DNA of 64,000 nucleotides from Candidatus Cloacimonadota bacterium (GTDB taxonomy: Bacteria; Cloacimonadota; Cloacimonadia; G963667145). Made by a program: the position numbers and the translations under genes. Below the pieces are notes generated by a model, which saw only the letters and a list, made by a program, of their open reading frames with translations, made no database searches and was not told the origin of the DNA. Shown piece after piece: positions 34,914 to 60,125 of the stretch. The stretch's first letter is position 1, and every line of letters starts with the position of its first letter. Location: assembly GCA_963676615.1 (NCBI GenBank), contig OY781092.1, forward strand, positions 32,586 through 96,585, written 5' to 3'.

Positions 34914-34914
34914 G

Positions 34915-38987: not shown

Positions 38988-38996
38988 GAGGCGTAA

Positions 38997-39360
<364 letters not shown>

Positions 39361-39364
<4 letters not shown>

Positions 39365-41691: not shown

Positions 41692-41709
41692 TTTCTAGGG
41701 AGGAAAATA

Positions 41710-42090: not shown

Positions 42091-42105
42091 TAAAAGAGGA
42101 CAAAA

Positions 42106-42632: not shown

Positions 42633-42643
42633 CTCAAAAAAAA

Positions 42644-42676
42644 AAGGCGGTGGATTGTCTTAATCCACCGCCTTTT
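42644..42676. terminator. Strong hairpin (13-bp perfect stem) flanked by A-run and T-run
   Basis: AAGGCGGTGGATT-gtctt-AATCCACCGCCTT followed by TT. Confidence 0.7.
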
Positions 42677-42742
42677 GATTTGACCGACTCTCTTAAAAAA
42701 AATTCTATTAAGCTAGAAATAAAAAAAATAGGGAGCTAAGCG

Positions 42743-47369: not shown

Positions 47370-47917
47370 GTATTTGCAAAAAAATAAGCTACGCTGTGCG
47401 GGCTACCGCTCCAGGCAAGGCGACGATTTTGAGAACCTCGGCACCAGCGGGGCAAGTGCGCAGCTTGGAGATGTATCAAACGCCAGGCGTCGCCTCAGCT
47501 CCCACGGCTGACGATAGGCTGGTTGAAGCAGAAATTGGCAGTGGCAAGCGGGTGGTAATAGCCACGCACAACTACAAAGTCGAGGTTGCTGTAAAGGCAG
47601 GCGAGACTATTATCTACTCCACAGACTCGGTAGGACAGGCGATTAGCAATCAAATTAAATTGGACAATGCGGGCAATATCGCTATTGGGGAAAGCGATAA
47701 TCAAATTTTGGTGGATAGTAAGGGCAATATCGATTTGGGGGGTGATGCTCGCACTTTTGTGACTTGGACAGAGCTAAATGCCGCCTTGCAATTACTGATG
47801 ACAGCGCTTAATTCACATACGCACAAGATAAGTCCAGGGGCATCTACTTTGCAGCCAAATACTCCACTGTCTATCGACATTTCGGCAGCAAACACGGCAA
47901 CGGTGAGGACGCGGTGA
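47357..47917 (+). CDS. Baseplate spike/assembly protein V (Mu gp45-like)
   Basis: OB-like N-terminal half and C-terminal ..HTH.. tip motif. Position. Confidence 0.7.
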   Translation: MGFLSICKKISYAVRATAPGKATILRTSAPAGQVRSLEMYQTPGVASAPTADDRLVEAEIGSGKRVVIATHNYKVEVAVKAGETIIYSTDSVGQAISNQIKLDNAGNIAIGESDNQILVDSKGNIDLGGDARTFVTWTELNAALQLLMTALNSHTHKISPGASTLQPNTPLSIDISAANTATVRTR

Positions 47918-48288
47918 AAGATTTGAAACTTTTGGAGCAAGTCCCAGCAGATGTGGACATCTCCGCTGGACAACTGCGAACAAGCGGCAGCCTCTACAAC
48001 GCCGTGTTTTTGTCTCTTTTTGTGCCGTCCAGCTGGCAAAACGAGTTTTTGCGACAGAAGTTGGAGAGCAGAATCCCCGAAATGATGCAAAAAAATCTAA
48101 CAAATCAAAATCGGTTAAACATAATAGCCGAGGCAGAGCGGGTGTTGGAGTGGCTTGTGCCAGAAGTGGCGGAGAGTGTGGCGGTGACAGCTACTATTCC
48201 CGCAAGAGGCAGACTAAATCTGGAGGTAAAAACAAACCAGCCAGACAACACCCTCAACTATCAACTAAATTGGGAGAGTATGCGATGA
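47914..48288 (+). CDS. Baseplate protein GP46 family
   Basis: GQL.TSGSLYNAV.LSLF pattern typical of GP46. GTG start overlaps the upstream stop. Confidence 0.7.
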   Translation: MKDLKLLEQVPADVDISAGQLRTSGSLYNAVFLSLFVPSSWQNEFLRQKLESRIPEMMQKNLTNQNRLNIIAEAERVLEWLVPEVAESVAVTATIPARGRLNLEVKTNQPDNTLNYQLNWESMR

Positions 48289-49400
48289 TCACAATTCCTA
48301 CAATTTCCGAAATAAAAGAGCAAATTTTGGCAGACTTGGAGGCGAGCCAGACCACAACTCCGCTTGTGTTGGTGTCTGTTTTAGAGCTTTTGGCTACTGC
48401 TTATGCGGGAGTTTTATATCTGGCTTATAAATTTGGAGCGTGGTGTTATGCCCAGATTTTTACAGCTACGATGGGTAAGGAGGCTTTGAAGCTCCGTGCG
48501 CAACGGTATGGCATTAGTGTAAACTCCGCTACAGAGTGCCAGGCGTTCGCCACAGCCACAGGCACAGATGGCGTCGTGATAGCAGCTGGGAAATTGGCAG
48601 AGATAGATGGCAATGCCTATGCGGTAATGGATACGGTGGTTATCGCAGGGGAAACACAGGTTAAAATCAAATCGCTTTTGACTGGCGAAAATTATCAACT
48701 TACCGTTGGTGACGAGCTGAAATTTACCACGCCGCAAATCGGAGTTAATGACGAAATTTGCATCTCTGAGATTGTGCAAAACGCCGAGGATGAGCAAACC
48801 GTGGAGTCTCTTCGTCGCCAAGTGCAACAGCGGGAGCAAAACACGCCACAGGGTGGTGCAATCCCCGACTATATTGGCTGGGCTCTGGAGGTTAGTGGAG
48901 TCGGAGAAGCGTTTGTTTGTCGTCCCGCAGCTGGTTTTGTGAATGTTTATGTGCTCACAGATGAGACAGATCCTGCCGATAGGTTGCCAAATGCAGCTCT
49001 TCGCAGGGCTGTGGGAAATTATATAAATGAGCCTGGGCGCCTGCCTTTTGGTAACAATGTTGTCAGCCCAGAATGGGCGGAGCGGAGCTTTCAGATAGAG
49101 TTTCAAAATTTTAGCACGGGTGGAAATAGTGTGGAGGTAAAAGCTGCGATTGAACAGGCGGTAGTCGATTACATCTACGCCCGTCGCCCGCGACAATACA
49201 CTAATCATTTAATAGATCTGTCCGTAATTGCGGAGGGGCAGCTTTCAAAAATCGCTCTCGAAAATGGCGCAACAAATATCAAGCCGATTTTAAAAAATAG
49301 CGATGGCGATATAATCGCTGGCGGTAAATATCAGCTAGACAACGGAGACGATGCAGTGGAACTCGCCAAAATCTCTGTCGAGGACATCTCGTGGACATAA
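48285..49400 (+). CDS. Baseplate J-like protein (Mu gp47)
   Basis: About 370 aa with an ATGA overlap. Position and baseplate-J-like N-terminus. Confidence 0.8.
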   Translation: MITIPTISEIKEQILADLEASQTTTPLVLVSVLELLATAYAGVLYLAYKFGAWCYAQIFTATMGKEALKLRAQRYGISVNSATECQAFATATGTDGVVIAAGKLAEIDGNAYAVMDTVVIAGETQVKIKSLLTGENYQLTVGDELKFTTPQIGVNDEICISEIVQNAEDEQTVESLRRQVQQREQNTPQGGAIPDYIGWALEVSGVGEAFVCRPAAGFVNVYVLTDETDPADRLPNAALRRAVGNYINEPGRLPFGNNVVSPEWAERSFQIEFQNFSTGGNSVEVKAAIEQAVVDYIYARRPRQYTNHLIDLSVIAEGQLSKIALENGATNIKPILKNSDGDIIAGGKYQLDNGDDAVELAKISVEDISWT

Positions 49401-49993
49401 AAAAAATTCTGGTTGCCTCGTTACCGTTACATCTCGGGGTAAATTTTCGGGCGATTACCCAAAATTTGGGAAAATCGTTGGAGCGGCTAAAACTTTTTTT
49501 TGAAGGTATTATCGTGGAGGCAGACCCTGTCACTGCAACCAAGACGATAGGTTTATGGTGCGAAAATCAGGGGCTAAAATGCGATATAAACCAATCAATT
49601 TCAAAATTGCAACGAGTAGCATCGCAGGCGTTTTTTGGGCTTGGCGCACAAAATAAAACTTATTTAGAGTCGCAAATCCAAAAAGTTTTCCCCGAGATTT
49701 TTTTGAATTATTACAGCTTTGACACTGCTTTTCAGGCAGGTGCTGGGATGTGTGGGAAAATGGTGGCGAGCGATTATCCGTCGTGGGCGCCACATAATGT
49801 TACTTTTGCCAGCTGTTTTTTGGTTTCTGGAACTACAGATTTTGTTTCAGATTTGAAAGTTTTAAAGCAAATAATTGGCAAAATTTGCCCCGCTCACCTA
49901 GAACCAATTTATCAAGTTGAAATTAAGAATTTGCAGGCTACAGCTCAATCGGGGTTTGGGATGTGTGGGATTATGCTAGCAGGCAAAAGTTAA
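49391..49993 (+). CDS. Baseplate/tail protein, DUF2313 (Mu gp48/YmfQ-like)
   Basis: EADPVTATKTIGLWCENQGL matches the DUF2313 e.DP.ta..lL..WE motif. Confidence 0.7.
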   Translation: MDIKKILVASLPLHLGVNFRAITQNLGKSLERLKLFFEGIIVEADPVTATKTIGLWCENQGLKCDINQSISKLQRVASQAFFGLGAQNKTYLESQIQKVFPEIFLNYYSFDTAFQAGAGMCGKMVASDYPSWAPHNVTFASCFLVSGTTDFVSDLKVLKQIIGKICPAHLEPIYQVEIKNLQATAQSGFGMCGIMLAGKS

Positions 49994-50008
49994 AAAAAGG
50001 AGAAAAAA

Positions 50009-51253
50009 ATGAGGAATATAGCGAGCCCAGGTAGTGTCTCTGGGCGATGGGTAGATTATGACGCAGTGACCAACCCGCTTGGCACGATATTTTCGGCACA
50101 GTGGGCCAACGATGTGCAAGATGAAATTACTGGAGTTATCCTTGAGGCGCGCTTGCCGCTGGTGGCAGGGAGCAAGCATAAGATGACAGAAGCTATAAAA
50201 ATAATAGCTTCAGAAACAGTTCCAGCGGCAGAACGATGGGCGAGTGCTGCAGAAGCTCAAATGGGGTTGGTTGAAGACAAGGTTGTCTCGCCAGCAACGA
50301 TTAAGCGGGCAGTCGGCTCTTGGAATTTGAATTTCAAGAACAAAATTATCAACGGCGGGTTTGATGTGTGGCAGAGGGGTGAGAGTTGGAGTGGAACGGA
50401 TAACGGAAACTACATAACAGCAGATAGGTGGAAGTTTGAGGCTGGGTTTGCTCACGGAGGGACACTATCTTCTAGCAGAAGCAAAAATATTTTGTTGCCA
50501 AATGGAGACTATGTGAATACTCTTAATATTTCTTTGCAAAATCCTAGTTCAAGACTTTGGGTTTCAACAACTGTGGAGAATGTTTTGCAGTCTAGTGGCA
50601 AAACATACACTTTGTCTTTTTACGCAAGAGCAGACACCCCAATTGATTTAGACTACATTCTGTTATTTCAAAGATATAATATAACAGACCAGTCTATTGT
50701 TACTCCCACACAAACTGCTTCAATTACGCAGTCTTGGCAAAGGTTTAGCTTTGTTTTTAGTTTGCCCGAAATTCCAAGTGATGCAAATATTGAGGAAGAT
50801 TGTAATTATTTTGGGGTGGATATAGCAACGCAAGAGGGTAATATTGTTCCTTGGGATAATGTGCAATTTGCTCAGGTTCAGTTAGAAGAGGGCGAGATTG
50901 CTACAGAGTTTGAGAAAAGACCGTTGCAAGTCGAAGAGTTGTTATGCAAGCGGTATTATGAAGTTTTAGGCAAGACTGGTTCAATGTTTATTCCTTTTAT
51001 TGCAAATGGCAATGCTAGTTGGGCGTCTGTTCAGATGTATCCTAAGCGAACAAAAAATTATTCAGTTTCTGTGGTTAATTCTGCAGAAATTTTCTGGCTA
51101 TATGGTGCTAGTGCGGTTCAGACAAGTGTAGCCCCTTCATTACATTACTGTGGCTATAGTCATTTAGCATTATCTCACGGAGTAGAGACTGTTGCAGGGC
51201 GTGCGTCTTTAGCCGCATATTTTAACCCAATTGAAATTGATGCAGAATTGTAG
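50009..51253 (+). CDS. Tail fibre protein
   Basis: N-terminal WANDVQDEI fibre motif. C-terminal jelly-roll-like region with VQLEEGEIATEFEKRP...CKRYYE. Confidence 0.8.
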   Translation: MRNIASPGSVSGRWVDYDAVTNPLGTIFSAQWANDVQDEITGVILEARLPLVAGSKHKMTEAIKIIASETVPAAERWASAAEAQMGLVEDKVVSPATIKRAVGSWNLNFKNKIINGGFDVWQRGESWSGTDNGNYITADRWKFEAGFAHGGTLSSSRSKNILLPNGDYVNTLNISLQNPSSRLWVSTTVENVLQSSGKTYTLSFYARADTPIDLDYILLFQRYNITDQSIVTPTQTASITQSWQRFSFVFSLPEIPSDANIEEDCNYFGVDIATQEGNIVPWDNVQFAQVQLEEGEIATEFEKRPLQVEELLCKRYYEVLGKTGSMFIPFIANGNASWASVQMYPKRTKNYSVSVVNSAEIFWLYGASAVQTSVAPSLHYCGYSHLALSHGVETVAGRASLAAYFNPIEIDAEL

Positions 51254-51261
51254 GAGAGAAA

Positions 51262-51639
51262 ATGAAAATTGAAAGTGTAAAATTGCAAAATGGCGGGTAT
51301 GTTATAAATGATAACCTGTTTGTGCCTGCGGCTGAGGGAAATAGGGACTATCGAGCGGTGCAGAAATGGATTGCAGATGGTGGAAATGTTGAGCCAGAGT
51401 TTTCGGAAGAAAAAATTTTGCAGAATAAGGTAGCAAAAAAGAAAGCGGAGCGGGATGCAAAGCTCAGAGAGACGGACATTTATCTCGTCGCAGATTTCCC
51501 GATTTCGAGCGAAAAACTAGAGCAAATGAAGTCGTATCGCGAATATTTGCGGCATATCCCCGAGGATGAAAAATTCCCCGAAGTAGAGGTTTTGGGGTTT
51601 GAGGTTTGGAATAAGGAGGGCGAAAATGGCGGAGCTTGA
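51262..51639 (+). CDS. Tail fibre assembly chaperone
   Basis: R.AKLRETDIYLVADFPIS...YREYLR pattern. Follows the fibre gene. Confidence 0.65.
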   Translation: MKIESVKLQNGGYVINDNLFVPAAEGNRDYRAVQKWIADGGNVEPEFSEEKILQNKVAKKKAERDAKLRETDIYLVADFPISSEKLEQMKSYREYLRHIPEDEKFPEVEVLGFEVWNKEGENGGA

Positions 51640-51916
51640 CACGAAGTTTGAGCTGTTGATGAAAGATCTCAACACGCTTGTGGCAGACCAAAATAAGTTG
51701 CTGAAGCGCTTCGAGAAGAATGACGAAAAGACGAACAAAATTTTTACTGTGCTGTTGGGTGTAGGTGGAAAATGCGGGCTTTTGGAGGATTTGGCGACGA
51801 TGAAACGGGAGATGTCGGATGTTAAGATTTTCAAACACAAGTTGGTCGGCTATGTTGGCGGAGCGTATGCTTTACTTGGTTTGATAGCGATTTTAGCGCG
51901 TTTGGGGGTGTTGTAG
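51626..51916 (+). CDS. XhlA-like lysis-associated membrane protein
   Basis: Coiled-coil N-terminus plus a single C-terminal TM (VGGAYALLGLIAILARLGVL). Precedes the holin-like gene. Confidence 0.5.
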   Translation: MAELDTKFELLMKDLNTLVADQNKLLKRFEKNDEKTNKIFTVLLGVGGKCGLLEDLATMKREMSDVKIFKHKLVGYVGGAYALLGLIAILARLGVL

Positions 51917-52777
51917 ATGTTGGGGTTTATTGGCAAAATTTTCGGCGGCGGAACAGTTAAAAAAGGACTAGATTTGGCGGACAAAGCGTTTTACACAGAC
52001 CAAGAGAAAGCTAATATGGATTTGAAGTTGGCGCAGGCTTACGGGCAGAATAGTCCAGCTAGCTCAAAGGCGAGGCGGTTTATGATGTATCTTTTTTGTG
52101 TGCCGTTTATGCTGTGTTTTTTGACGGGGTTTGTGCATTTGCTGCTGGGTAATTCGGCGGAGATAAACAACATAATAAACTATGTAAATCTGTGGAATTT
52201 GCCTGCGCTGGTGGGAGGTATTTTGCTGTTCTATTTCGGCAGGCAGGCTATGGCAGAGGCGCAAAGCAATAAGCGGATTAAGAATTTGGCGTTGTTGAAA
52301 AAGGAAGAGGCGAAAGTTATTAAGCCCAAATATAGCAAAGAAGAACAAAAGCTGCTCAATTCTAGTTTGCCAAATATCAAACTAATAAGAACGGCTCGAC
52401 CAAGCAACGCAACACAAGGCGTGCTGGTTAAAGACGAAGAAATTTTTTGCTTAACAATGGAAAAGGCGTGGCGTGATAATAAGAGCAATGTTTCGTGCAT
52501 CCCTGCTGGGGTGTATAAGTGCGAGATGACGCCTAGTAGTATGGATAGCGACGGCGACGCTTACCAGGTGCTAGATGTGCCAAACAGAACGAGCGTGAAA
52601 ATCCACGCAGGGAATGAGCAAGGTGACAGTCAAGGATGCATCTTGCTTGGCAGTGCTACAGAACTTGGCAAGGTGGATGGCAAGGCGTTCCAATTTCAAA
52701 GCAAAAAAGCGGTGCGAGCTTTTGAAAAAGCGATGAATAAAAAGCCGTTTGTGCTGGAAATCGTGGAGGTGGTATGA
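51917..52777 (+). CDS. Holin-like 3-TM N-terminal domain fused to DUF5675-like domain
   Basis: The N-terminus resembles GTA-type 3-TM holins. The C-terminal IPAGVYKC...VKIHAGNEQGDSQGCILLG matches the DUF5675 pattern. Confidence 0.55.
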   Translation: MLGFIGKIFGGGTVKKGLDLADKAFYTDQEKANMDLKLAQAYGQNSPASSKARRFMMYLFCVPFMLCFLTGFVHLLLGNSAEINNIINYVNLWNLPALVGGILLFYFGRQAMAEAQSNKRIKNLALLKKEEAKVIKPKYSKEEQKLLNSSLPNIKLIRTARPSNATQGVLVKDEEIFCLTMEKAWRDNKSNVSCIPAGVYKCEMTPSSMDSDGDAYQVLDVPNRTSVKIHAGNEQGDSQGCILLGSATELGKVDGKAFQFQSKKAVRAFEKAMNKKPFVLEIVEVV

Positions 52778-52799
52778 TACCAGTTGATGGAGAACGAAA

Positions 52800-52874
52800 A
52801 TGAAGAGTCCGTTAGCGTATGTTGGAGGCAAGAGCAAAAAAGTTTTAGTAAAAAAAAATAAACTTTTTACTTGA
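52800..52874 (+). pseudogene. Possible 5' remnant of a Dam-type N6-adenine methyltransferase
   Basis: The 24-codon ORF MKSPLAYVGGKSKK resembles the D12-class N-terminal SPL.Y.GGK motif, then terminates. Confidence 0.35.
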
Positions 52875-52909
52875 CAGGAAGTCAGACCGTTATAGTGTAG
52901 TTGTATAAT
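52851..52909 (+). promoter_or_regulatory. Conserved cassette leader / putative promoter of hicAB-1
   Basis: AAAAAAAATAAACTTTTTACTTGACA, then TATAAT at 52904-52909. Same layout and 33-nt TTGAC-to-ATAAT spacing as at 53813-53872. Confidence 0.5.
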
Positions 52910-52930
52910 TAAAAAGCAGGGAAAAGAAAA

Positions 52931-53191
52931 ATGAAATTGAACAGCAAACAAAGAAAGACTTTAGAGGCAGTATTCGGTAAGCCTACTAAAACTAACATCA
53001 AGTGGAACGAAGTTGTAAATTTGTTAATTGCTTTGGGCGTTAAGCAAGGTCAAGGTAGCGGTTCGAGAGTATTTTTTATTTTTGGGAATGAAAAATTGGC
53101 GATGCACAAGCCACATCCTGCTAATACAATTAAAAGATATGTTGTAGAAGACATCAGAGATTTTTTAAGGAGGATAAATGTTACACTATAA
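52931..53191 (+). CDS. hicA: HicA-family toxin (copy 1)
   Basis: 86 aa. KQRKTLEAVF..P....I.W..V..L and HKPHP motifs. Overlaps the hicB start. Confidence 0.85.
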   Translation: MKLNSKQRKTLEAVFGKPTKTNIKWNEVVNLLIALGVKQGQGSGSRVFFIFGNEKLAMHKPHPANTIKRYVVEDIRDFLRRINVTL

Positions 53192-53498
53192 AGGCTATAC
53201 AGGCTCGGTTGATTATTCCGAAGAGGATAAAATTTTTTTTGGACGAGTGGCTGGGATCAGAGACATCATTTCGTATGAGGGTGAAACTTCTGCTGAATTG
53301 GAGCAAGATTTTAGAGATGGGATTGATGATTATTTGAAAAATTGTGAAATTTGTGGGCAGCAGCCAAATAAGCCTTTTGCTGACGAAATCAAAATAAAAA
53401 CTACTCCTGAATTTCACGAAAAAGTTTATTTGAAAGCTCTTAAAAACGGGAAAAGTGTTGATGATTTCGTGCAAGGAGCAATCGAAAAAGTGCTATGA
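53178..53498 (+). CDS. hicB: HicB-family antitoxin (copy 1)
   Basis: YKGYTGSVDYSEEDKIFFGRV..I.D.I.YEG.T..EL...F...IDDYL and a C-terminal RHH-like tail. Confidence 0.85.
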   Translation: MLHYKGYTGSVDYSEEDKIFFGRVAGIRDIISYEGETSAELEQDFRDGIDDYLKNCEICGQQPNKPFADEIKIKTTPEFHEKVYLKALKNGKSVDDFVQGAIEKVL

Positions 53499-53824
53499 GT
53501 TTTGATAAGGATAAATACTATCTCGGGCGGCTTTGCAAGTATGGGCATAATTTTGATAACACAGGCAAATCCCTCCGCTACAAATCGTCTAGGCAGTGCG
53601 TGGAGTGTAGCTCCAGCAAGAGCGCTTTTATACCCAAGCCAAAAAGTTTTGAGACTGATGTGAAAAATTTTCAAGTGCAGGCGAAAAAGAACAATATTGA
53701 GCTGTATGAAAATTTTAAACTAGAGGCAAAAAAAAGGGTTGGATCTGTCAAGTTGGCGGTGGTGGAGGCGATGAGAATGTGGCTAGCGGAGGAAAAAAAC
53801 GTTGTGTCTTGCAAAAAAAAATAA
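53495..53824 (+). CDS. Zinc-finger-like (C..GH...C..C) plus RHH-like protein
   Basis: ATGA coupling to hicB-1. LGRLCKYGHNFDNTGKSLRYKSSRQCVEC motif. The C-terminal LAVVEAMRMWL is RHH-like. Confidence 0.5.
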   Translation: MSFDKDKYYLGRLCKYGHNFDNTGKSLRYKSSRQCVECSSSKSAFIPKPKSFETDVKNFQVQAKKNNIELYENFKLEAKKRVGSVKLAVVEAMRMWLAEEKNVVSCKKK

Positions 53825-53872
53825 ACTTTTTGCTTGACGAAAAATCACTCTGTCACAGTATAGATACATAAT
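53813..53872 (+). promoter_or_regulatory. Conserved cassette leader / putative promoter of hicAB-2
   Basis: AAAAAAAAATAAACTTTTTGCTTGACG, then CATAAT at 53867-53872. Paralogous to 52851-52909. Confidence 0.5.
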
Positions 53873-53891
53873 TGAAACAGAGGAACAAAAG

Positions 53892-54152
53892 ATGAGCAAG
53901 AAAGACAAGACACTAAAAGCTATTTTCACAAACCCTAAAAAATCAAATATCAAATGGAGCGATTTTGTTAGCTTAGTAAAAAGTTTGGGCGGAACGGTGG
54001 AAAGTGATAACAGTGGCTCAAATCACACTTTTAGACTTGGAAAGCAAATTTTGAACCTGCACAGACCACATCCAAACAACGAAATTAAAAAATGTTACAT
54101 CAAAATAATAAGAGAGTTTTTAGAGAAAGGGAGCGAAAATGTTAAATTATAA
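53892..54152 (+). CDS. hicA: HicA-family toxin (copy 2)
   Basis: 86 aa. KTLKAIF.NP....I.W.DF..L and HRPHP. Diverged paralogue of copy 1. Confidence 0.85.
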   Translation: MSKKDKTLKAIFTNPKKSNIKWSDFVSLVKSLGGTVESDNSGSNHTFRLGKQILNLHRPHPNNEIKKCYIKIIREFLEKGSENVKL

Positions 54153-54459
54153 AGGATATTCTGCTTCGTATCAATACGAGGCAGAGGACAATCTTTTTCT
54201 TGGTCAAGTGTTGGGGATTGATCATCAGATTGTCTTTGAGGGACAGACCGAAGAGGAAGCCAAAGAAAGTTTTAGACATTCCGTAGATAATTATTTGGGC
54301 TATTGTAAAAAAAATAATATAGTGCCGCAATATCCAAAATTGGAAAAAGTATCAATCAAGTTGCCAAAATTTTGTTTTGAAAAAGCCAATCAAAAAGCCA
54401 AACAACTCGGTGAGTCGGTAGATCAATTTTTCCTTGATGCTATTCAAAAAGTTTTGTAA
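54139..54459 (+). CDS. hicB: HicB-family antitoxin (copy 2)
   Basis: 106 aa, the same length and motif layout as copy 1 (YKGYSASYQYEAEDNLFLGQV). Confidence 0.85.
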   Translation: MLNYKGYSASYQYEAEDNLFLGQVLGIDHQIVFEGQTEEEAKESFRHSVDNYLGYCKKNNIVPQYPKLEKVSIKLPKFCFEKANQKAKQLGESVDQFFLDAIQKVL

Positions 54460-54469
54460 AAACTAGCGA

Positions 54470-54496
54470 AATGGGCAGACGCTGTGTCTGCCCATT
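54470..54496. terminator. Bidirectional hairpin terminator (11-bp perfect stem)
   Basis: AATGGGCAGAC-gctgt-GTCTGCCCATT between convergent hicB-2 and the DUF2188 gene. Confidence 0.75.
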
Positions 54497-54508
54497 ATAT
54501 TTCAAATT

Positions 54509-54748
54509 TTAGCCTATGGATTTAACAGGGTCGTTACCATAGCTATTTCGGTCTCTGAATTTGCCATCTTTTCCGTGTATGAAGAGTTCAGATTTTTGAT
54601 TTATAGCAATTTTCCTACCGTAAGCAGCAGCTTCTGCTTGAGTTCTAAATACTTTTGTTGCCGTTTTATTTCCTTCGCCCACTACAGCCCAACCATCACC
54701 ATATTTCACTACATGTTGATTTTTTCCCATAATTTTAAAATTGTTCAT
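54509..54748 (-). CDS. DUF2188-family protein
   Basis: HVVKYGDGWAV..EGN..ATKVF.TQ.EA..YGR.IA...KSEL.IHGKDG.. matches the DUF2188 pattern. Confidence 0.75.
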   Translation of the reverse strand: MNNFKIMGKNQHVVKYGDGWAVVGEGNKTATKVFRTQAEAAAYGRKIAINQKSELFIHGKDGKFRDRNSYGNDPVKSIG

Positions 54749-54761
54749 TTGAAAATATCAC

Positions 54762-55739
54762 TTAGATTAAAAAAGGTGTTAGTTTATTTTCACTGGTTAT
54801 TATTATATTACAACCTTCTCTTTTTAGTTCCAAAGCTTTTTCTATCTTCCGTCCAGCAGAGGTTTGTATCCAATTTTCATTAGCGAGTGTTCCAACTACC
54901 AATATATTGGTAGATTTAGATAAGTTATTTTTAGGATTGGCACCAGCATTTTCCAAAATGTCAAAAATCTCCGACCTTTTCCCAAAGAGGAAATTGCCAG
55001 TTAAACAAATTCTTTTGTTTTTAATCGACTTAATGTCTTCCTGGAACAAAGAAGTTGCCCCACCTACAGCACAACCATCTGCTGTAAAATCGATGCCAGT
55101 AATTTTTTTTATTAGAGTGCAAAGTTCCTTTAGTTCTTTAGGTTCTACTCTGTTATCTGCTAATATGTCTTTAACTTTATTTCTGATTACACTATAGGGG
55201 AACGAGTCCGCAAGTTCTTGGCAATAACCTAAGAATTTGTGCAGTTCTTTAAATTCGTTTAAATTGATAATATTATCCGCGGCTATTCCATTTAGGAATC
55301 CAGAAAATTCATTATTTTTGTCTTCAAGAAATCTGAAATCTTCAGAGTATTCTATGCAACTTTTTAATTCCCTAAGGAGTTCATCTTTCTTCTCTTCATT
55401 TATTGCCCCAACTCTTAATATTTCATTTATAGTCTCTAATAGGTCAAAGGTATCATCAAAAGATGCCCCTTGATTTTCGAGCCAAGACTGCAAAAAGAGT
55501 ATTTCTGCATCTTCAATTTTCCCATCACAACTAATCCCTCGCAGTATGCCTGTCAAAGAGTTAGCAGCTTTGCTCCTATTTCTTTTATAGTTATAGATAT
55601 AGAGTTTCTTTTTATCAGGTTCTACAAATTTCTTGGGCTTCTTTGACTTGGGAGCGTTTGATTTTGAGGTTTTGGGTGATGCCTTAGACTTAATTTTCGT
55701 TGTGGTTTCTTTTGATTTTAAAAAACTAAATATTCCCAT
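54762..55739 (-). CDS. Lys-rich N-tail / TerB-like repeats / C-terminal BRCT-domain protein
   Basis: ICLTGNFLFGKRSEIFDILENAGA...KSTNILVVG...GRKIEKALEL aligns by eye with the LigA BRCT. GISCDGKIEDAEILFL and GIAADNIINLNEFKEL resemble TerB-type ADG.i...E motifs. Confidence 0.6.
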   Translation of the reverse strand: MGIFSFLKSKETTTKIKSKASPKTSKSNAPKSKKPKKFVEPDKKKLYIYNYKRNRSKAANSLTGILRGISCDGKIEDAEILFLQSWLENQGASFDDTFDLLETINEILRVGAINEEKKDELLRELKSCIEYSEDFRFLEDKNNEFSGFLNGIAADNIINLNEFKELHKFLGYCQELADSFPYSVIRNKVKDILADNRVEPKELKELCTLIKKITGIDFTADGCAVGGATSLFQEDIKSIKNKRICLTGNFLFGKRSEIFDILENAGANPKNNLSKSTNILVVGTLANENWIQTSAGRKIEKALELKREGCNIIITSENKLTPFLI

Positions 55740-55768
55740 TTTTATATCCTTGGTTATCTATTTTTATT

Positions 55769-56146
55769 TTACGCCTTTACCAGTTTGGAATGAACCAGTT
55801 CAAGAGCAATATTTTTAGCTTTTTCCAGCTCAGCATCAAGATTTTGGTTTTCTTTTTTTAGGTCAGTGACCTGTTTTTCCAACATTTTGATTTTTTTTAT
55901 CATTTTTTCGTCTTCCTCTGTATCCAAAAACATTGCCCCCTTGCCCAGCATTAGCCAAGTCGGGTTGACATTCAGTTTATTTATTATTTTGCTAATTAGT
56001 TCTTTTGAAGCGTCTATTTTGTAGGTGAACATTCTATTAATTAATGTTCTTGAAATCTCTATATCATTGGCAAAATCTGCCTGCTTTGTGTAGTTGTTGT
56101 GCTTGTAGATCAATTTTACTCTATCAATTAACTCTTTATTTATCAT
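55769..56146 (-). CDS. Phage CI-type repressor (HTH) with coiled-coil C-terminus
   Basis: The Phage_CI_repr-like pattern ends in NPTWLMLGKGAMF. C-terminal heptad-rich LEKQVTDLKKENQNLDAELEKAK. No S24 Ser/Lys domain. Confidence 0.8.
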   Translation of the reverse strand: MINKELIDRVKLIYKHNNYTKQADFANDIEISRTLINRMFTYKIDASKELISKIINKLNVNPTWLMLGKGAMFLDTEEDEKMIKKIKMLEKQVTDLKKENQNLDAELEKAKNIALELVHSKLVKA

Positions 56147-56192
56147 ACAAATAACCTCTATCTATTAAAAAAGTTCAAAAAAACAACTTGAC

Positions 56193-56209
56193 AGTTCAGT
56201 TATTGAACT
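56193..56209. promoter_or_regulatory. Candidate operator palindrome in repressor/early divergent region
   Basis: AGTTCA-gttat-TGAACT perfect inverted repeat. An additional AGTTCA half-site lies at 56172-56177 and a TTGACA at 56188-56193. Confidence 0.45.
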
Positions 56210-56378
56210 TACATTGACCACATAATCAACAACAAGTCGTTTTTAAGATACGGCAGGAATGCGGTCAAGATATTTTTTGGTTGTAGTTATTTTTTAAGAG
56301 ATGTATAGAAGTGTGACTATAGGTTTTGATTGACATTAAGCTCTACAAGGAGTTTTTTTATCAGAAAGGAGTGTTTAT

Positions 56379-56885
56379 ATGGATAATCAAGAGTTGGTGA
56401 CTAAAGATTTGGAAGGGGTAAAGAATGATAGGCAAAAGGCAGAGTTTATTTTCGCCAGAGGCAAAGATTTCATAGACTTTGCCAATGAGAACTGTAAGCA
56501 TATGGACAATAAAGCCTACCAACTAATTGGTGTTTTGTTCTTGATGTTGCCGATATTGGTGGCTTTTAGAGCCAAATTGTTGGAGCTTGGATGTTGCGCG
56601 TATTTTTTCGCTATTTGCTATGGGCTAGTTTTTTTGCTATTGTGTGTGATAGTTTGCCCAAGAAGTAATGCTACTTCGGGTAATCCTCCAAAAACTTATT
56701 TAAATTTAGCAGACCAAAAATACTCGGAGATGGTTGCAAGTTGTTTGTATCTCATTTATGACGCATGCAAGACAAACTTGGCAGTTGTTGAAAAAAAAGC
56801 TACCTGTCTAAAGGTAGCTTTGGGCTTGCTTTTTTTATCATTTGTTTTTCTGGGTATTGGTGTTTTTACTGTCTTCAATGTGTAA
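56379..56885 (+). CDS. Membrane protein resembling Pycsar-effector (DUF5706)/SLATT-type effectors
   Basis: About 50-aa helical N-terminus ending in MDNKAYQLIG, then 2 adjacent TM helices, a 35-aa loop and a third TM. AAGGAG SD. Confidence 0.45.
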   Translation: MDNQELVTKDLEGVKNDRQKAEFIFARGKDFIDFANENCKHMDNKAYQLIGVLFLMLPILVAFRAKLLELGCCAYFFAICYGLVFLLLCVIVCPRSNATSGNPPKTYLNLADQKYSEMVASCLYLIYDACKTNLAVVEKKATCLKVALGLLFLSFVFLGIGVFTVFNV

Positions 56886-56969
56886 TTTTTCTTTGTTAAC
56901 AGAGTTTTGCAACAATGTATTTGTTGTTTGAGGTTTCTTAGGACTTTCATCTTTGTAAATTTTCGTCAT
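56838..56969 (-). CDS. Possible 43-aa hydrophilic ORF convergent with and overlapping the membrane-protein gene
   Basis: ATG 56969 is preceded by AAGGAGAG at appropriate spacing. It overlaps the 3' 48 nt of 56379-56885. Confidence 0.25.
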   Translation of the reverse strand: MTKIYKDESPKKPQTTNTLLQNSVNKEKLHIEDSKNTNTQKNK

Positions 56970-57078
56970 TTCTGCTCTCTCCTTTTTTATGAGTTGACTA
57001 TGACATAAAAAATAAGGGGAGGGCGGGAATGTCAACCAAAATCTGGTCACATTTTAGTTAAAAAAACAGGAGGATTTT

Positions 57079-57360
57079 GTGACAAGGCAGCAACTGCGAG
57101 ACACCCAATTACAAATGCAAATATCTATCAAAGAGTTAGCGCTTGGATGCGGGGTGCACCGCGACACGATGGGCAAAGTCATAAATGGGAAATATGGAAG
57201 AGAAGATTTTGCTAAAGTCATTCTCGCTAAGGCAGAAAAGTATTTGAACAGTCGTCGCTGGAAGTGTGTAGATTGTGGATACATTTCTGACCAAAAGGGG
57301 TATTGCCCCGAATGTGATGGGCATACTTGGGTAAAATATTATGTGCAAAAAAATGATTAA
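57079..57360 (+). CDS. XRE-type HTH plus zinc-ribbon regulator (Cro/antirepressor-like position)
   Basis: ISIKELALGCGVHRDTMGKVINGK HTH. CVDCG...CPEC ribbon. GTG start with a AGGAGG SD. Confidence 0.6.
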   Translation: MTRQQLRDTQLQMQISIKELALGCGVHRDTMGKVINGKYGREDFAKVILAKAEKYLNSRRWKCVDCGYISDQKGYCPECDGHTWVKYYVQKND

Positions 57361-57631
57361 AGATGTTCCAAACGAGATTATAGGGCTTTGTAGAAAATAT
57401 TACAACGCAGGCTATCCGCTCGAATTTCTTTTGCGTGATTTCCATCCGACTTGTGGAGAAATAAATGAGCTCGACTTATATCTCTACAAAAAAGATTTGA
57501 AAACCTTGATTGAAGAAACTTGGGTGGCTGTGACAAAAGGTGAGACAACAACACTTAAACAAAGCAAAAAATTTGATAATTTTTTGGCGTGGTGGAACAA
57601 ATGCAACGCCAAGCTACAGGAGGCAATGTGA
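57341..57631 (+). CDS. Hypothetical phage early protein
   Basis: ORF overlapping its neighbours at both ends. No motif recognised. Confidence 0.45.
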   Translation: MCKKMIKDVPNEIIGLCRKYYNAGYPLEFLLRDFHPTCGEINELDLYLYKKDLKTLIEETWVAVTKGETTTLKQSKKFDNFLAWWNKCNAKLQEAM

Positions 57632-57951
57632 GCAATGTGGAACTTAACAAAGGCGACAAAATTTACCTAGCTGGTCCGATGAGCGGCAAAGAGGGACTAA
57701 ATTTTTTGGCGTTTACCCAAGCTGAACGCTATTTAGCAGAGCGCGGATATAGTGTCGCCAATCCTCACAAATTTGGAGACAAGACAAAAAGTCGTCAGTG
57801 CAATATTGCCCAAAGTCTCTTCCAAATCCAATCTTGCCAAGCGGTTTATTTCTTGCGTGGCTGGGAGCATAGCGATGGCGCAAAGTTAGAGTTTGAAGCG
57901 GCACGCAAAATGGGCAAAATCTTGATGTTTGAACATTTTTTTGATAAATAA
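57589..57951 (+). CDS. DUF4406 (nucleoside 2-deoxyribosyltransferase-like) protein
   Basis: KIYLAGPMSGKEGLNF..F..AE..L...GY.V.NP pattern and C-terminal S.GA..E...A. Start may be GTG 57628 (GTGA overlap). Confidence 0.7.
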   Translation: MVEQMQRQATGGNVSNVELNKGDKIYLAGPMSGKEGLNFLAFTQAERYLAERGYSVANPHKFGDKTKSRQCNIAQSLFQIQSCQAVYFLRGWEHSDGAKLEFEAARKMGKILMFEHFFDK

Positions 57952-57994
57952 AAAGAAAAGCAGAAAATAATAATTTTAAAAAAAGGGGATTAGC

Positions 57995-58291
57995 GTGGTA
58001 GATTTAGAGATGATGCAACAAAAAATCAACGATATTTCCGAGGTTTTGGCAAATTTGACCGTTGACGCTCCCAAAAGATTGCTGCTTCCAAAAGAGGTTG
58101 CCGAAATGCTGAACTACACAGAAAACCAAGTCAAGAAAAAAAGCAGAAATAGAGAGCTGCCAAGCTATAAATTTGGCAAAAACATCTACTTTGATCGACT
58201 GGAGTTGGAAGATATGATTTTAGCCGATAAATATAGGCGACAATCCAACCAAGAGATAGATTATCAAGTGAGTAAGGCGATGAGCAAATGA
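57995..58291 (+). CDS. xis: Excisionase-type HTH protein
   Basis: LLLPKEVAEMLNYTENQVKKKSRNRELPSYKFGKNIYFDRLELEDMI fits the MerR/AlpA-like excisionase fold. Adjacent to the integrase. Confidence 0.7.
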   Translation: MVDLEMMQQKINDISEVLANLTVDAPKRLLLPKEVAEMLNYTENQVKKKSRNRELPSYKFGKNIYFDRLELEDMILADKYRRQSNQEIDYQVSKAMSK

Positions 58292-58410
58292 GCACATCGT
58301 TTGAAGATACGAAGTTGGCGATTTTGTAATAATCGCCCATAAAATAACCTTGCCCCAAATAGGCAAAATTGGGGCAGCAATTTGATAGAAATTTATAGAT
58401 GTGGAGATTA

Positions 58411-59583
58411 TTACAGATTGAGCTTAGGTAGGGCGTCGATGGCGGCGTCCTTGACCCTATCAACAAGGTGAGCATAAATTTGTGTAGGCTTGATAGAAGA
58501 ATGCCCAAGCAGCCTAGAGACAGTGTAGATATCGACTCCCTTGCTGAGCAGGAGAGTTGCAAATGTGTGCCGAGCGCAATGAAAAGTGATGTGTTTTTTT
58601 ATTCCCGAATTGGCGACCCACAGTCGCATCACCTGGCTGATATAGTTGGAATACGGAATTTTAAAGACGAATTTACTCTTGCCTTGCAACTCTTTTTGTT
58701 CGGCAAGGACTTTGTTTGCGTCGTCGTTTAGCTTCAGACTCGCTATTTCTCCTGTTTTTTCTTGTGAAATGTTAATAAAATTAGAGTTTTGAGTGTTTGA
58801 TGAAATTTCTTGAAATTTTAAGTTTCGCAAGTCGCTAATGCGGAGCCCTGTGCAGCAGCTAAAGATAAAGGCGTTGCGGATTTGAGTAGAGCTGCAAGGA
58901 GTTAATACTAACTTTCTTAGTTCATCTTCGTTTAAAAATTCTCGTGGTTTTTGCGCTACTTTGATGGTAATGCCCGTCGCGGGAGATTTGTTGATGAGCC
59001 CATCGGCAATCGCAGAGTTGAAGCAAGTTTTTAGGACTCTAAAGTAAGTTTGCATTGTATTAGCCGCGATTGCTTTTTTAAGACCTTTGCTTGTTTTAGT
59101 TGACTCATCGCTTCCGTCTAAAGTCTTTTTGAAATCGATCAACATTTTATTTGTTACATTTTGGATAAGGCAATCTTTACCCAAAAAATCTTTGATGCGA
59201 CGATATACCACCCACCAGTTTCTGTTTTGCTCTTTTTTCTGCCCTTTTGAAATTCTTAAAGCGTCTCGGTTTGCGGCAAGCTTGGCTAAATATTCGAGAA
59301 AATAGACATCTTTTTCACTCGCTAAATCAAATGCCTTGTTTTGCAAAATTTGACTTTCATTTTTCTGCTGAATAGCAAAAACAAGTCTAAGTTTATTTTC
59401 GTTTTCAGCTTTTTGTTGCGGGTTTGACGACAAATATACATCAAGGAATTTGCGGGTCCGTTTGCCGTTTTTGTTCATTTCAAGATAAAGCGAATATCCG
59501 TTTTTTATGACATTAAAGCGAACTTTCACTTTTTTTAGGTTATTACATCCTGCTAGGATGTTTTCGAGTCTTTTTTTAGTCAT
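58411..59583 (-). CDS. int: Tyrosine site-specific integrase
   Basis: Catalytic R (TGLRISD), HCARHTFAT and LGHSSIKPTQIYAH (H-x-x-R ... H ... Y). N-terminal arm-binding and SAM-like domains. Confidence 0.92.
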   Translation of the reverse strand: MTKKRLENILAGCNNLKKVKVRFNVIKNGYSLYLEMNKNGKRTRKFLDVYLSSNPQQKAENENKLRLVFAIQQKNESQILQNKAFDLASEKDVYFLEYLAKLAANRDALRISKGQKKEQNRNWWVVYRRIKDFLGKDCLIQNVTNKMLIDFKKTLDGSDESTKTSKGLKKAIAANTMQTYFRVLKTCFNSAIADGLINKSPATGITIKVAQKPREFLNEDELRKLVLTPCSSTQIRNAFIFSCCTGLRISDLRNLKFQEISSNTQNSNFINISQEKTGEIASLKLNDDANKVLAEQKELQGKSKFVFKIPYSNYISQVMRLWVANSGIKKHITFHCARHTFATLLLSKGVDIYTVSRLLGHSSIKPTQIYAHLVDRVKDAAIDALPKLNL

Positions 59584-60050
59584 TTTTGTAACCTAGCCCC
59601 TTAGATTTGGTTTAAAAATCGGTTTGACAAATTTTGTCTTGCTGGTTTTTTATTTTTCAGCAAAAAATCAAAAGAAAGTCACTTGTCAAGAAGAAAAGGA
59701 CACAAAGAGAACTATTAAAAATGGGTTTGAAAAATTTCAATGGCAGCTTTCCGAGGTTTTGTTTGCCCTAATTACTTTATTTATATAGTTAAGTGTGGGT
59801 TCGGGAGTAGCCAAGAAAAATTGTTATTTTTGTTTTGTAACTTTTGGTATTTTGTCAAAATTTGAGGTTTAAAATAGGGAGTCTGACTTTTTTCAGTTTG
59901 AGAAAGTCGAAAAATGAAAATTGAAAGTCGCTAAAAAGACAATTTAGGGAAATTCAAGAGAAAACACAAAGAAAATAAAAAGTTGCTAACAGTTTATATC
60001 TTGTTGAAATTGCTTACTTTTAGATGTTTTTTGCTTTTTTAAAAGTAAAT

Positions 60051-60125
<75 letters not shown>

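What the first reader, a model, noticed from the sequence alone, without database searches (positions are those of the whole stretch)
54509..56146. Lysogen-expressed operon: CI repressor / TerB-like+BRCT protein / DUF2188, a candidate undescribed prophage exclusion or defence module
Three co-directional minus-strand genes are separated by only 29 nt and 13 nt. The run ends at a strong bidirectional hairpin (54470-54496). The first gene is a CI-type repressor, so the two downstream genes should be transcribed in the lysogen. That is the slot occupied by rexAB in lambda and by many prophage superinfection-exclusion or defence genes. The 325-aa protein has an odd architecture. It starts with a Lys/Ser-rich disordered tail and two TerB-like half repeats (GISCDGKIEDAEILFL and GIAADNIINLNEFKEL). 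It ends in a BRCT-like domain that otherwise occurs in bacteria mainly at the C-terminus of NAD-dependent ligase, where it binds nicked or phosphorylated DNA. A TerB-domain protein is one component of the Shango defence system. I know of no described system that pairs TerB-like+BRCT with DUF2188. The region is also visibly more A/T-rich than the structural genes, as morons often are.
Basis: partly seen in the sequence, partly recalled or inferred. Interest (0 to 1): 0.7.

Follow-up and report, generated by a model that had tools for sequence, protein, structure and literature searches.

The report
Prophage repressor operon carrying two cargo genes
A 32-kb prophage carries a repressor-led operon with two unrelated accessory genes, a DNA-end-binding-type protein related to Orf2 of cholera phage K139 and a small DUF2188 protein; each is linked on its own to phage immunity or defence regions, but they are not a conserved pair.

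Summary
Three co-directional minus-strand genes lie at the stated coordinates, with 29- and 13-nt gaps. They end at a strong hairpin, are AT-rich, and sit inside a 32-kb prophage integrated in tRNA-Thr.

The 325-aa protein is a clear homologue of Orf2 of Vibrio phage K139 (35% identity, E 2e-53; phrog_3989, E 2e-63). In the K139 record, cI-orf2-glo-int is annotated as the lysogenic operon. The protein has a disordered basic tail, two homologous four-helix repeats and a BRCT domain of the LigA/RFC1 type. The repeats resemble TerB only below threshold.

Relatives sit next to prophage repressors in 92 of 158 loci. Longer relatives are fused to DEDDh exonuclease or HhH domains, and some are paired with an ion channel.

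The 79-aa protein is DUF2188, which is already PADLOC candidate PDC-S16. Its close homologues head CBASS operons or sit in defence islands.

The proposed pairing fails: DUF2188 occurs in none of 160 Orf2-like loci.

Best reading: the lysogeny operon carries two independent cargo genes, and a role in exclusion or defence is plausible but untested. It is a new member of a known but uncharacterised kind. Interest is moderate.

The parts
28049..60065 (.). Context: a prophage of about 32 kb bounded by a 13-bp direct repeat (GAGCCAAAGATGG at 28049-28061 and 60053-60065). The right copy lies inside tRNA-Thr(CGT), 60051-60125.
   Evidence: Direct repeat; tRNA; O-like and DnaC-like replication genes, terminase, portal, Mu-like capsid and tail genes, integrase.
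56147..56378 (.). Divergent control region between the HTH gene and the rightward genes (orf168 ... xis). It holds a 17-bp palindrome, AGTTCAgttatTGAACT (56193-56209), inside the spacer of a sigma-70-like site (TTGACA-16-TACATT, 56188-56215, + strand). The palindrome is a candidate operator.
   Evidence: These are consensus matches only. The total number of promoter-like sites is not above chance (7 found, 8.5 expected).
55769..56146 (-). First gene: a 125-aa HTH_3 (XRE-type) protein with a C-terminal coiled coil. It is the probable lysogeny repressor and has no S24 peptidase domain.
   Evidence: Pfam HTH_3 at 25.5 bits; PHROG transcriptional regulator and repressor families at E 3e-8 to 2e-7. 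Its position is divergent from an operon that ends in an excisionase-like gene next to the integrase.
54762..55739 (-). Second gene: a 325-aa protein of the K139 Orf2 family (phrog_3989). Layout: disordered Lys/Ser-rich tail (aa 1-~43, 55611-55739); repeat 1 (aa 50-133, 55341-55592); repeat 2 (aa 134-222, 55074-55340); BRCT domain (aa 240-325, 54765-55022).
   Evidence: phrog_3989 at E 2.2e-63, full length; 35% identity to K139 Orf2, E 2e-53; AlphaFold2 models with pLDDT 85.8 and 91.0; BRCT profile against RFC1 and LigA BRCT structures at E 1e-7 to 1e-5; Foldseek BRCT hits; repeat 1 against repeat 2 at E 5.6e-26.
54509..54748 (-). Third gene: a 79-aa DUF2188 protein (PADLOC PDC-S16, phrog_3220).
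   Evidence: PF09954 at E 1.6e-24; PDC-S16 at E 1.1e-32; phrog_3220 at E 1.5e-28.
54470..54496 (.). Hairpin with an 11-bp stem between the convergent 3' ends of DUF2188 and HicB2. It is a probable bidirectional terminator that closes the operon.
   Evidence: -19.1 kcal/mol, z -3.85; sequence. It was not called by the simple terminator scan.

Best explanation
The locus is the lysogeny (immunity) operon of a tRNA-Thr-integrated prophage. A short HTH repressor gene is followed, with 29- and 13-nt gaps and one terminal hairpin, by two independent cargo genes that are probably co-transcribed with it in the lysogen.

Cargo 1 belongs to the widespread K139-Orf2 family. It has a basic disordered tail and two tandem four-helix repeats of the type (G-I-x-A-D-x5-E ... 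I-L-x-D-G-x5-E), which are remotely TerB-like. It ends in a BRCT domain of the LigA/RFC1 class that keeps the T-G ... R pocket residues. These residues align with those said, from my recollection, to bind a 5'-phosphate in RFC1.

The most likely mode of action is inferred, not shown. The BRCT domain would dock on phosphorylated DNA ends or nicks, for example on injected or replicating foreign phage DNA. The helical repeats would act as the sensor or adaptor part that blocks the DNA or recruits an effector. In relatives the effector is supplied in cis or next door: a DEDDh 3'-5' exonuclease, HhH plus a second BRCT, an ion channel, or Glo in K139. The outcome would be superinfection exclusion or defence.

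Cargo 2, DUF2188, is a separate small component associated with defence islands. It was acquired independently and is not a dedicated partner of cargo 1.
For: Shown:
- Operon anatomy and hairpin.
- Prophage limits and module order.
- Homology to K139 Orf2. The K139 record annotates PL as 'transcription of lysogenic operon', marks a lysogenic transcription start site, and gives the gene order cI-orf2-glo-int, with Glo noted as 'involved in phage exclusion'.
- Of 158 related loci, 72 have a CI-type gene (HTH_3 + Peptidase_S24) convergent immediately downstream, followed by cro-, cII- and O-like genes. Another 20 have an HTH or CI gene co-directional upstream, as in the window.
- The link survives de-replication. 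At 90% identity, 37 of 97 clusters have a repressor neighbour, and 29 of the 30 clusters that contain a viral contig do.
- The BRCT domain is closest to the RFC1 and LigA BRCT domains. T247, G248 and R255 are invariant or nearly so and align with the RFC1 T-G ... R.
- Of 10 longer family members scanned, 5 carry an RNase_T exonuclease, 1 carries HhH plus a second BRCT and 1 has a BRCT match in two stretches. The exonuclease is also fused in P0079 and is a separate, overlapping upstream gene in L003.
- Six loci pair the gene with an Ion_trans channel gene. One is L082, with the order cI -> Orf2-like -> channel -> int.
- Close DUF2188 homologues (56-71% identity) are the first gene of CBASS type II operons, divergent from HTH/M78 (CapH/CapP-like) regulators. 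Others sit beside TIR/AbiH/SMC genes or next to an integrase and a Schlafen-domain gene.
- DUF2188 matches PADLOC PDC-S16.
Against: - No phenotype, transcript or DNA-binding data exist for this locus.
- The Orf2 family matches no PADLOC model beyond a weak BRCT-only hit (PDC-S48, E 0.004).
- No effector domain or membrane partner lies next to the gene in the window.
- In the commonest enterobacterial layout the gene is convergent with cI, so expression in the lysogen is not implied there.
- 66 of 158 loci, mostly short one-repeat forms in other phyla, show no phage context.
- The N-terminal domain has no significant structural neighbour.
- The window BRCT score is only just above the Pfam cut-off.
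- The enrichment of membrane proteins among adjacent co-directional neighbours is modest (23 of 94 against a 13% background) and the loci are not independent.
Confidence: 0.5

Rival explanations
1. The Orf2-like protein is an accessory to the lysis-lysogeny switch. It would sense DNA damage (nicks or ends) through its BRCT domain and adjust repressor function or induction, rather than exclude other phages.
For: The gene is almost always directly next to cI or an HTH repressor in phage contigs. In enterobacterial prophages its 3' end overlaps that of cI by 9-18 nt, and its 5' end faces the leftward early genes across an intergenic region of about 100-400 nt, so it could be under operator control. 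A WYL+BRCT protein, whose WYL domain type I recall as a ligand or ssDNA sensor, precedes it in 6 loci. [quoted passage not shown]
Against: The protein has no DNA-sequence-specific or protease domain. Many family members lie outside prophages. Fusions are to exonuclease and HhH domains, not to regulators. The window repressor lacks the S24 domain, so RecA-type induction logic is not evident here.
Confidence: 0.2
2. The Orf2-like protein is a DNA repair or replication accessory that serves the phage or the lysogen. It could be a nick- or end-binding adaptor that recruits ligase, clamp or exonuclease. It would have no role in conflict between phages.
For: The BRCT domain is of the ligase/clamp-loader type. 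Relatives are fused to a DnaQ-like exonuclease or to a LigA-like HhH-BRCT module. Several database records name family members 'NAD-dependent DNA ligase'. PHROG ligase families give weak hits.
Against: The gene sits in the repressor operon, not in the replication module, which lies at 28.2-31 kb. It is AT-rich like acquired cargo. There is no catalytic domain. K139 places it beside the exclusion gene glo.
Confidence: 0.13
3. One reading: the TerB-like+BRCT protein and DUF2188 form one dedicated two-component exclusion or defence system.
For: A 13-nt gap and a shared terminator suggest co-transcription. Each family shows its own association with defence or immunity regions.
Against: DUF2188 is absent from all 160 Orf2-like loci (up to 8 kb of flank on each side where the contig allowed) by tblastn, phmmer and a 36-sequence profile on six-frame translations. 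No BRCT gene appears in any DUF2188 locus examined. The partners of both families vary widely.
Confidence: 0.07

Closest known systems
Orf2 of Vibrio cholerae phage K139 (Peduoviridae; cI-orf2-glo-int lysogenic operon), PHROG family phrog_3989
   Same: Homology runs over the whole conserved part (35% identity, E 2e-53), with the same architecture of two repeats plus BRCT. The position is the same: immediately downstream of, and co-directional with, the repressor, in an operon annotated as lysogenic.
   Different: The window protein has an extra basic disordered N-terminal tail of about 45 aa. The host appears to be a different phylum; Bacteroidota-type integrase and DUF5683 neighbours suggest this, but it is an inference. 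The downstream gene is DUF2188 rather than glo and int. No function for K139 Orf2 appears in the records and papers I could read; the K139 papers of Nesper 1999 and Kapfhammer 2002 were not held.
Lambda RexA/RexB (genes in the cI operon; a sensor plus a membrane channel giving abortive infection)
   Same: The slot is the same: cargo co-transcribed with the repressor. In six relatives the Orf2-like gene is paired with an Ion_trans channel gene. One of them (L082) has the order cI -> Orf2-like -> channel -> int.
   Different: No sequence or fold relationship to RexA was found or tested. The window has no adjacent channel gene. The only nearby membrane protein (orf168) is divergent and only weakly PycTM-like.
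BRCT domains of NAD-dependent ligase LigA and of clamp-loader subunit RFC1
   Same: These are the best sequence-profile and fold matches. The T-G and R positions are conserved.
   Different: There are no ligase or AAA+ domains. The family has an insertion (consensus SSRDWxFSS) before the GRKIEKA helix. DNA binding has not been tested.
TerB domain (PF05099), including the TerB protein of the Shango defence system
   Same: The repeats carry an A-D-x5-E / D-G-x5-E type helical motif. TerB is the most frequent sub-threshold Pfam match in homologues (11 of 38 proteins and 7 of 46 single repeats; best E 0.002). DUF533, which I recall belongs to the same Pfam clan, comes next among the non-BRCT families.
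   Different: Pfam gives no TerB match at all for the window protein. No TerB structure appears among the Foldseek matches listed for the N-terminal model. The Shango partner genes (ATPase and helicase) are not neighbours.
DUF2188 / PADLOC PDC-S16, and the DUF2188 genes of operons regulated by CapH/CapP
   Same: Strong family match. The gene lies downstream of an XRE-type HTH regulator. The closest homologues are in CBASS operons and in TIR/AbiH islands. Lau et al. 2022 note DUF2188 in operons regulated by CapH/CapP.
   Different: Here it is the last gene of a prophage repressor operon, and no cyclase, TIR or M78 peptidase gene is nearby.

Membership tests
K139 Orf2 family / phrog_3989 | Full-length sequence homology to family members | tested here: met
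   phrog_3989 at E 2.2e-63 over aa 44-323 against profile positions 3-291 of 296. K139 Orf2 at 35% identity, E 2e-53. 80 homologues found.
K139 Orf2 family / phrog_3989 | Architecture of two helical repeats plus a C-terminal BRCT domain | tested here: met
   Alignment A1; AlphaFold2 models; internal repeat at E 5.6e-26.
K139 Orf2 family / phrog_3989 | Location in or next to the prophage repressor operon | tested here: met
   Window: downstream of the HTH gene. K139: cI-orf2. 92 of 158 related loci have a repressor neighbour.
BRCT domain (PF00533), LigA/RFC1 DNA-binding class | Pfam score above the gathering cut-off, and a BRCT fold | tested here: met
   22.0 bits against a cut-off of 21.3, which is marginal. 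36 of 38 homologues match, best E 1.7e-11. Family profile against RFC1 BRCT at E 1e-7 and LigA at E 2e-6. Foldseek probability 1.0 to RFC1 BRCT.
BRCT domain (PF00533), LigA/RFC1 DNA-binding class | Conserved phosphate-pocket residues (T-G in the beta1-alpha1 loop, and Arg in alpha1) | tested here: met
   T247 and G248 are invariant and R255 is conserved in at least 90% of sequences. They align with the RFC1 T-G ... R. The role of these residues in RFC1 is from my own knowledge. Binding itself cannot be tested here.
TerB domain (PF05099) | Significant profile match, or a fold match to a TerB structure | tested here: inconclusive
   No TerB hit for the window protein. Sub-threshold TerB hits in 11 of 38 homologues and 7 of 46 single repeats, best E 0.002. 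Foldseek of the N-terminal model (pLDDT 91) against PDB and BFVD gives nothing with E below 0.1 and no TerB entry among the matches listed. The repeat profile against PDB sequences gives no TerB.
Shango defence system | A TerB protein together with an ATPase gene and a helicase gene (composition as I recall it) | tested here: not met
   No ATPase or helicase gene lies beside the operon (gene table). PADLOC gives no Shango match.
CI-type (lambda-like) repressor | N-terminal HTH DNA-binding domain | tested here: met
   HTH_3 at 25.5 bits; PHROG repressor and regulator families.
CI-type (lambda-like) repressor | C-terminal S24 (LexA-like) self-cleavage domain | tested here: not met
   No Peptidase_S24 match. 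The C-terminus is a predicted coiled coil (weak bZIP and DivIC hits). The CI proteins next to relatives do carry S24.
CI-type (lambda-like) repressor | Divergent from the early or excision operon, with operators in between; confers immunity | tested here: inconclusive
   The divergent operon orf168 ... DUF4406-xis and a 17-bp palindrome within a promoter-like site are present. Immunity cannot be tested here.
DUF2188 (PF09954) / PADLOC PDC-S16 | Profile match over the whole domain | tested here: met
   PF09954 at E 1.6e-24 over profile positions 1-62 of 62. PDC-S16 at E 1.1e-32 over 1-72 of 75.
   0 of 160 loci by tblastn, phmmer and profile HMM. No BRCT gene in the DUF2188 loci.
RexAB-like sensor plus channel module | A membrane channel or effector gene adjacent to the sensor gene in the repressor operon | tested here: not met
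   Absent in the window. Present in 6 related loci. Homology to RexA was not tested.

The most novel reading that the evidence does not exclude
The K139-Orf2 family would be a large, uncharacterised class of repressor-linked DNA-end or nick sensors that temperate phages express from their lysogeny modules to exclude or abort infection by other phages. Its tandem TerB-like repeat occurs in 3,370 clusters at 50% identity. The effectors would be interchangeable: an ion channel as in RexB, a DEDDh exonuclease, or Glo. The window copy would be a prophage variant, possibly from Bacteroidota, with an added basic tail.
Probability: 0.3. Interest if true: 0.75.

Novelty: new member of a known kind. Interest (0 to 1): 0.45.

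Why it matters
The slot beside the prophage repressor is where rexAB, sieB and many other exclusion genes were found. This gene family fills that slot in phages of Vibrio, Enterobacterales and other bacteria, and has no assigned function. About 1.3% of complete E. coli genomes carry it (71 of 5,426). K139 lysogens of V. cholerae are also available, so the question can be tested directly in model hosts. If the BRCT-based DNA-end-sensing idea holds, it would add a new sensor type to phage defence and give K139 orf2 a function. For this window alone, the result is mainly a correct annotation and the removal of a supposed two-gene system.

Tried and rejected
- Nucleotide similarity of 54400-56400 to 50,697 phage records: no match.
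- Foldseek of the full model against PDB: only BRCT hits. Foldseek of the N-terminal repeat model against PDB and BFVD: nothing significant, so neither a TerB fold nor any other known fold could be assigned.
- Repeat-only profile against PDB sequences: best hit YgfB/HI0817 at E 0.0024, which I did not find convincing.
- TerB by Pfam: sub-threshold only.
- Orf2-like/DUF2188 pairing: rejected.
- orf168 as a PycTM effector: the precomputed annotation says PycTM. My direct Pfam scan found no PycTM match, and PADLOC gives only E 0.005-0.008. I treat it as a weak lead.
- Sigma-70 promoter scan: not above chance, and possibly not applicable if the host is Bacteroidota.
- Literature searches for BRCT with prophage, TerB, anti-phage or lysogen, for 'BRCT domain-containing protein' with phage, and for PDC-S16: no functional study found.
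- Nesper 1999, Kapfhammer 2002 and Burroughs & Aravind 2020 are not held and could not be read.
- Contexts of the closest homologues (P0002, P0006, P0010) are uninformative: the genes lie at contig ends or beside transposase genes (DDE-type or IS110).
Full report
**Observation.**
The three minus-strand ORFs are at the stated coordinates: 55769-56146 (125 aa), 54762-55739 (325 aa) and 54509-54748 (79 aa). Public gene calls for the same contig are identical. The gaps are 29 and 13 nt.

Downstream of the last gene lies an 11-bp G+C-rich hairpin (54470-54496). It sits between the convergent 3' ends of DUF2188 and a HicB gene. It folds at -19.1 kcal/mol with z = -3.85 against shuffles, although the simple terminator scan did not list it. 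The operon is 33.5% G+C, against 46.6% for the structural genes.

Pfam gives HTH_3 (25.5 bits), BRCT (22.0 bits, just above the 21.3 cut-off) and DUF2188 (86 bits).

**Setting.**
The operon lies inside a prophage of about 32 kb. The prophage is bounded by a 13-bp direct repeat, at 28049-28061 and 60053-60065. The right copy is in tRNA-Thr(CGT).

From left to right the prophage carries the following genes:
- O-like and DnaC-like replication genes, SSB and a methylase;
- GpA-type terminase, portal, ClpP protease and a Mu-gpT-like capsid gene;
- Mu-like tail and baseplate genes, and DUF5675;
- two HicAB pairs;
- the operon studied here;
- a divergent set of genes (orf168, two small ORFs, DUF4406, an HTH_17 excisionase-like gene);
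- a tyrosine integrase.

The 232-nt divergent region holds a 17-bp palindrome (56193-56209). It lies inside the spacer of a TTGACA-16-TACATT site.

The 125-aa HTH protein is therefore well placed to be the lysogeny repressor. It has a coiled-coil C-terminus and no S24 peptidase domain, so 'CI-type' holds by position only.

**The 325-aa protein.**
It matches PHROG family phrog_3989 (function unknown) over its whole conserved length, at E 2.2e-63. About 80 homologues of roughly 294 aa were found, many named 'BRCT domain-containing protein' in Providencia, Citrobacter, Serratia, Plesiomonas and Shewanella.

AlphaFold2 with this alignment gives a confident model (pLDDT 85.8). Residues 1-30 are disordered, eight helices span aa 43-221, and a BRCT fold spans aa 240-325. 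The Lys/Ser-rich tail is absent from the homologues.

The helices form two homologous units (hhalign probability 99.7%, E 5.6e-26).

The BRCT assignment is solid at family level:
- 36 of 38 homologues match Pfam BRCT.
- The family profile hits the RFC1 BRCT domain (E 1e-7) and LigA BRCT domains.
- Foldseek returns BRCT domains.
- T247 and G248 are invariant and R255 nearly so. They align with the RFC1 T-G ... R residues. Their role in 5'-phosphate binding is from my own knowledge.

The TerB idea is only weakly supported:
- Pfam gives no TerB match for the window protein.
- TerB is the most frequent sub-threshold family in homologues (11 of 38 proteins, 7 of 46 single repeats, best E about 0.002), and DUF533 is the next non-BRCT family.
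- A separate model of the repeat domain (pLDDT 91) has no significant neighbour in PDB or BFVD.

**Closest characterised relative.**
A tblastn search of phage records finds the gene in Vibrio phage K139 and its kin (Kappa, VPUSM 8, 919TP, VcP032). The window protein is 35% identical to K139 Orf2 (E 2e-53).

The K139 record annotates the promoter PL as 'transcription of lysogenic operon' and marks a lysogenic transcription start site. The gene order is cI - orf2 - glo - int, and Glo is noted as 'periplasmic protein; involved in phage exclusion'. I could not read the original K139 papers, and the records and papers I could read assign no function to orf2.

**Context across 160 loci.**
I fetched 80 genome loci and 80 viral-contig loci and clustered the neighbouring ORFs. 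Pfam was run on cluster representatives.
- In 72 of 158 loci a CI-type repressor (HTH_3 + Peptidase_S24) lies convergent immediately downstream. The 3' ends overlap by 9-18 nt. Cro-like (YdaS), CII (CP76) and O-like genes follow.
- In 20 loci an HTH or CI gene lies co-directional upstream, as in the window and in K139.
- After de-replication at 90% identity, 37 of 97 clusters keep a repressor neighbour, and 29 of the 30 clusters with a viral-contig member do.
- 71 of 5,426 complete E. coli genomes carry the gene, overlapping a prophage XRE repressor gene.
- The remaining loci are mostly short one-repeat forms in other phyla and have varied contexts.

**Clues to mechanism.**
The repeat-only profile finds 3,370 clusters at 50% identity. 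Ten longer members were scanned:
- 5 carry an RNase_T (DEDDh) exonuclease;
- 1 carries HhH plus a second BRCT domain;
- 1 has a BRCT match in two stretches.

P0079 is another exonuclease fusion. In L003 the exonuclease is a separate, overlapping upstream gene.

Six loci from different lineages pair the gene with an Ion_trans channel gene, in either order. L082 reads cI -> Orf2-like -> channel -> int, a layout like rexAB. Six loci have a WYL+BRCT protein upstream. Membrane proteins are about twice as frequent as background among adjacent co-directional neighbours.

All of this points to a protein that acts on DNA ends or nicks and works with variable effectors. That it does so to exclude other phages is an inference from its position.

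**DUF2188.**
The 79-aa protein matches PF09954, PADLOC PDC-S16 (E 1e-32) and phrog_3220. Close homologues (56-71% identity) fall into three contexts:
- the first gene of CBASS type II operons (SMODS, ThiF/Cap2, and JAB in one of them), divergent from HTH/Peptidase_M78 regulators;
- beside TIR/AbiH/SMC genes;
- next to an integrase gene and near a Schlafen-domain gene.

Lau et al. 2022 report DUF2188 operons under CapH/CapP control and cite Burroughs & Aravind 2020 for a predicted defence role. A 2025 preprint lists a DUF2188 protein as a putative Thoeris effector.

**The pair.**
DUF2188 was sought in all 160 Orf2-like loci by tblastn, by phmmer and by a 36-sequence profile on six-frame translations. 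It found nothing, while the window copy scored E 1.5e-44 as a positive control. No BRCT gene appears in the DUF2188 loci. The two genes are therefore independent cargo, not a system.

**Verdict.**

The locus is a new member of a known but uncharacterised kind, namely K139-type repressor-operon cargo. Interest is moderate, and it rests on the family as a candidate exclusion or defence sensor that can be tested in E. coli or V. cholerae.

Noticed in passing
window 56379-56885 (+): orf168 is the first gene divergent from the repressor gene. It is a 168-aa protein with about 3 predicted TM segments. The precomputed annotation calls it PycTM, the Pycsar membrane effector family. My Pfam scan found no PycTM match, and PADLOC gives only E 0.005-0.008. 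No cyclase gene is nearby.
   Followed up: partly
window 52931-54459 (+); locus L162: Two HicA/HicB toxin-antitoxin pairs, about 42% identical to each other, flank a 109-aa ORF just upstream of the hairpin. A second 10-kb contig from the same sample shows an extra inverted copy of this block beside a truncated DUF5675 gene. This could be a structural variant or an assembly artefact.
   Followed up: partly
window 28049-28061 and 60053-60065; tRNA-Thr 60051-60125 (-): A 13-bp direct repeat (GAGCCAAAGATGG) marks the prophage ends. The prophage is integrated in the 3' part of tRNA-Thr(CGT). A Fic-domain gene (26869-28011) lies just outside the left end.
   Followed up: yes
window 57589-57951 (+): A DUF4406 gene (nucleoside 2-deoxyribosyltransferase-like; phrog_355 at E 1e-24) lies in the early operon between small regulator-like ORFs and the excisionase-like gene. 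The 93-aa ORF at 57079-57360 looks by eye like an HTH followed by a CxxC...CxxC zinc ribbon (candidate Cro-like regulator). Only a weak Pfam hit to the zinc-ribbon part supports this.
   Followed up: no
loci L007, L010, L011, L060, L067, L082: The Orf2-like gene is tightly paired (2-129 nt apart, in either order) with an Ion_trans / Ion_trans_2 potassium-channel-like gene, in distant lineages. L082 has the order cI -> Orf2-like -> channel -> integrase, which resembles lambda cI-rexA-rexB.
   Followed up: partly
loci L118, L130, L137, L148 (also L012, L026): A protein with an N-terminal WYL domain and a BRCT domain lies upstream of the Orf2-like gene. It is 392 aa in the four P2-like lysogeny operons, which read HTH - 203-aa TM protein - WYL/BRCT - Orf2-like - integrase. 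L012 and L026 have shorter forms.
   Followed up: partly
proteins P0079, P0177, P0194, P0201, P0215, P0224; locus L003 7366-8034: Several family members are fused to a DEDDh (RNase_T) 3'-5' exonuclease, at either end of the protein. In L003 the exonuclease is a separate, overlapping upstream gene. P0225 carries HhH plus a second BRCT domain.
   Followed up: partly
locus L174 (E. coli STEC799) and 72 loci of the L014-L160 set: In enterobacterial lambdoid prophages the Orf2-like gene is convergent with cI and the 3' ends overlap by 9-18 nt. Its 5' end faces the leftward early genes across about 100-400 nt. This suggests possible operator control or transcriptional interference.
   Followed up: no
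locus L001 6614-7810; locus L177 96-1301: A Schlafen AlbA_2-domain gene, a family recently reported as phage defence, lies 121 nt upstream of the closest genome homologue of the Orf2-like gene in a Bacteroidota MAG. Another lies about 2.7 kb from a DUF2188 homologue.
   Followed up: no
loci L027, L037, L038, L042, L048, L055, L057, L064, L080, L181: IS110-family transposase genes recur within one or two genes of Orf2-like genes in sponge-symbiont and other MAGs. Several close homologues sit at contig ends. Both points are consistent with carriage on mobile or repeated DNA.
   Followed up: no
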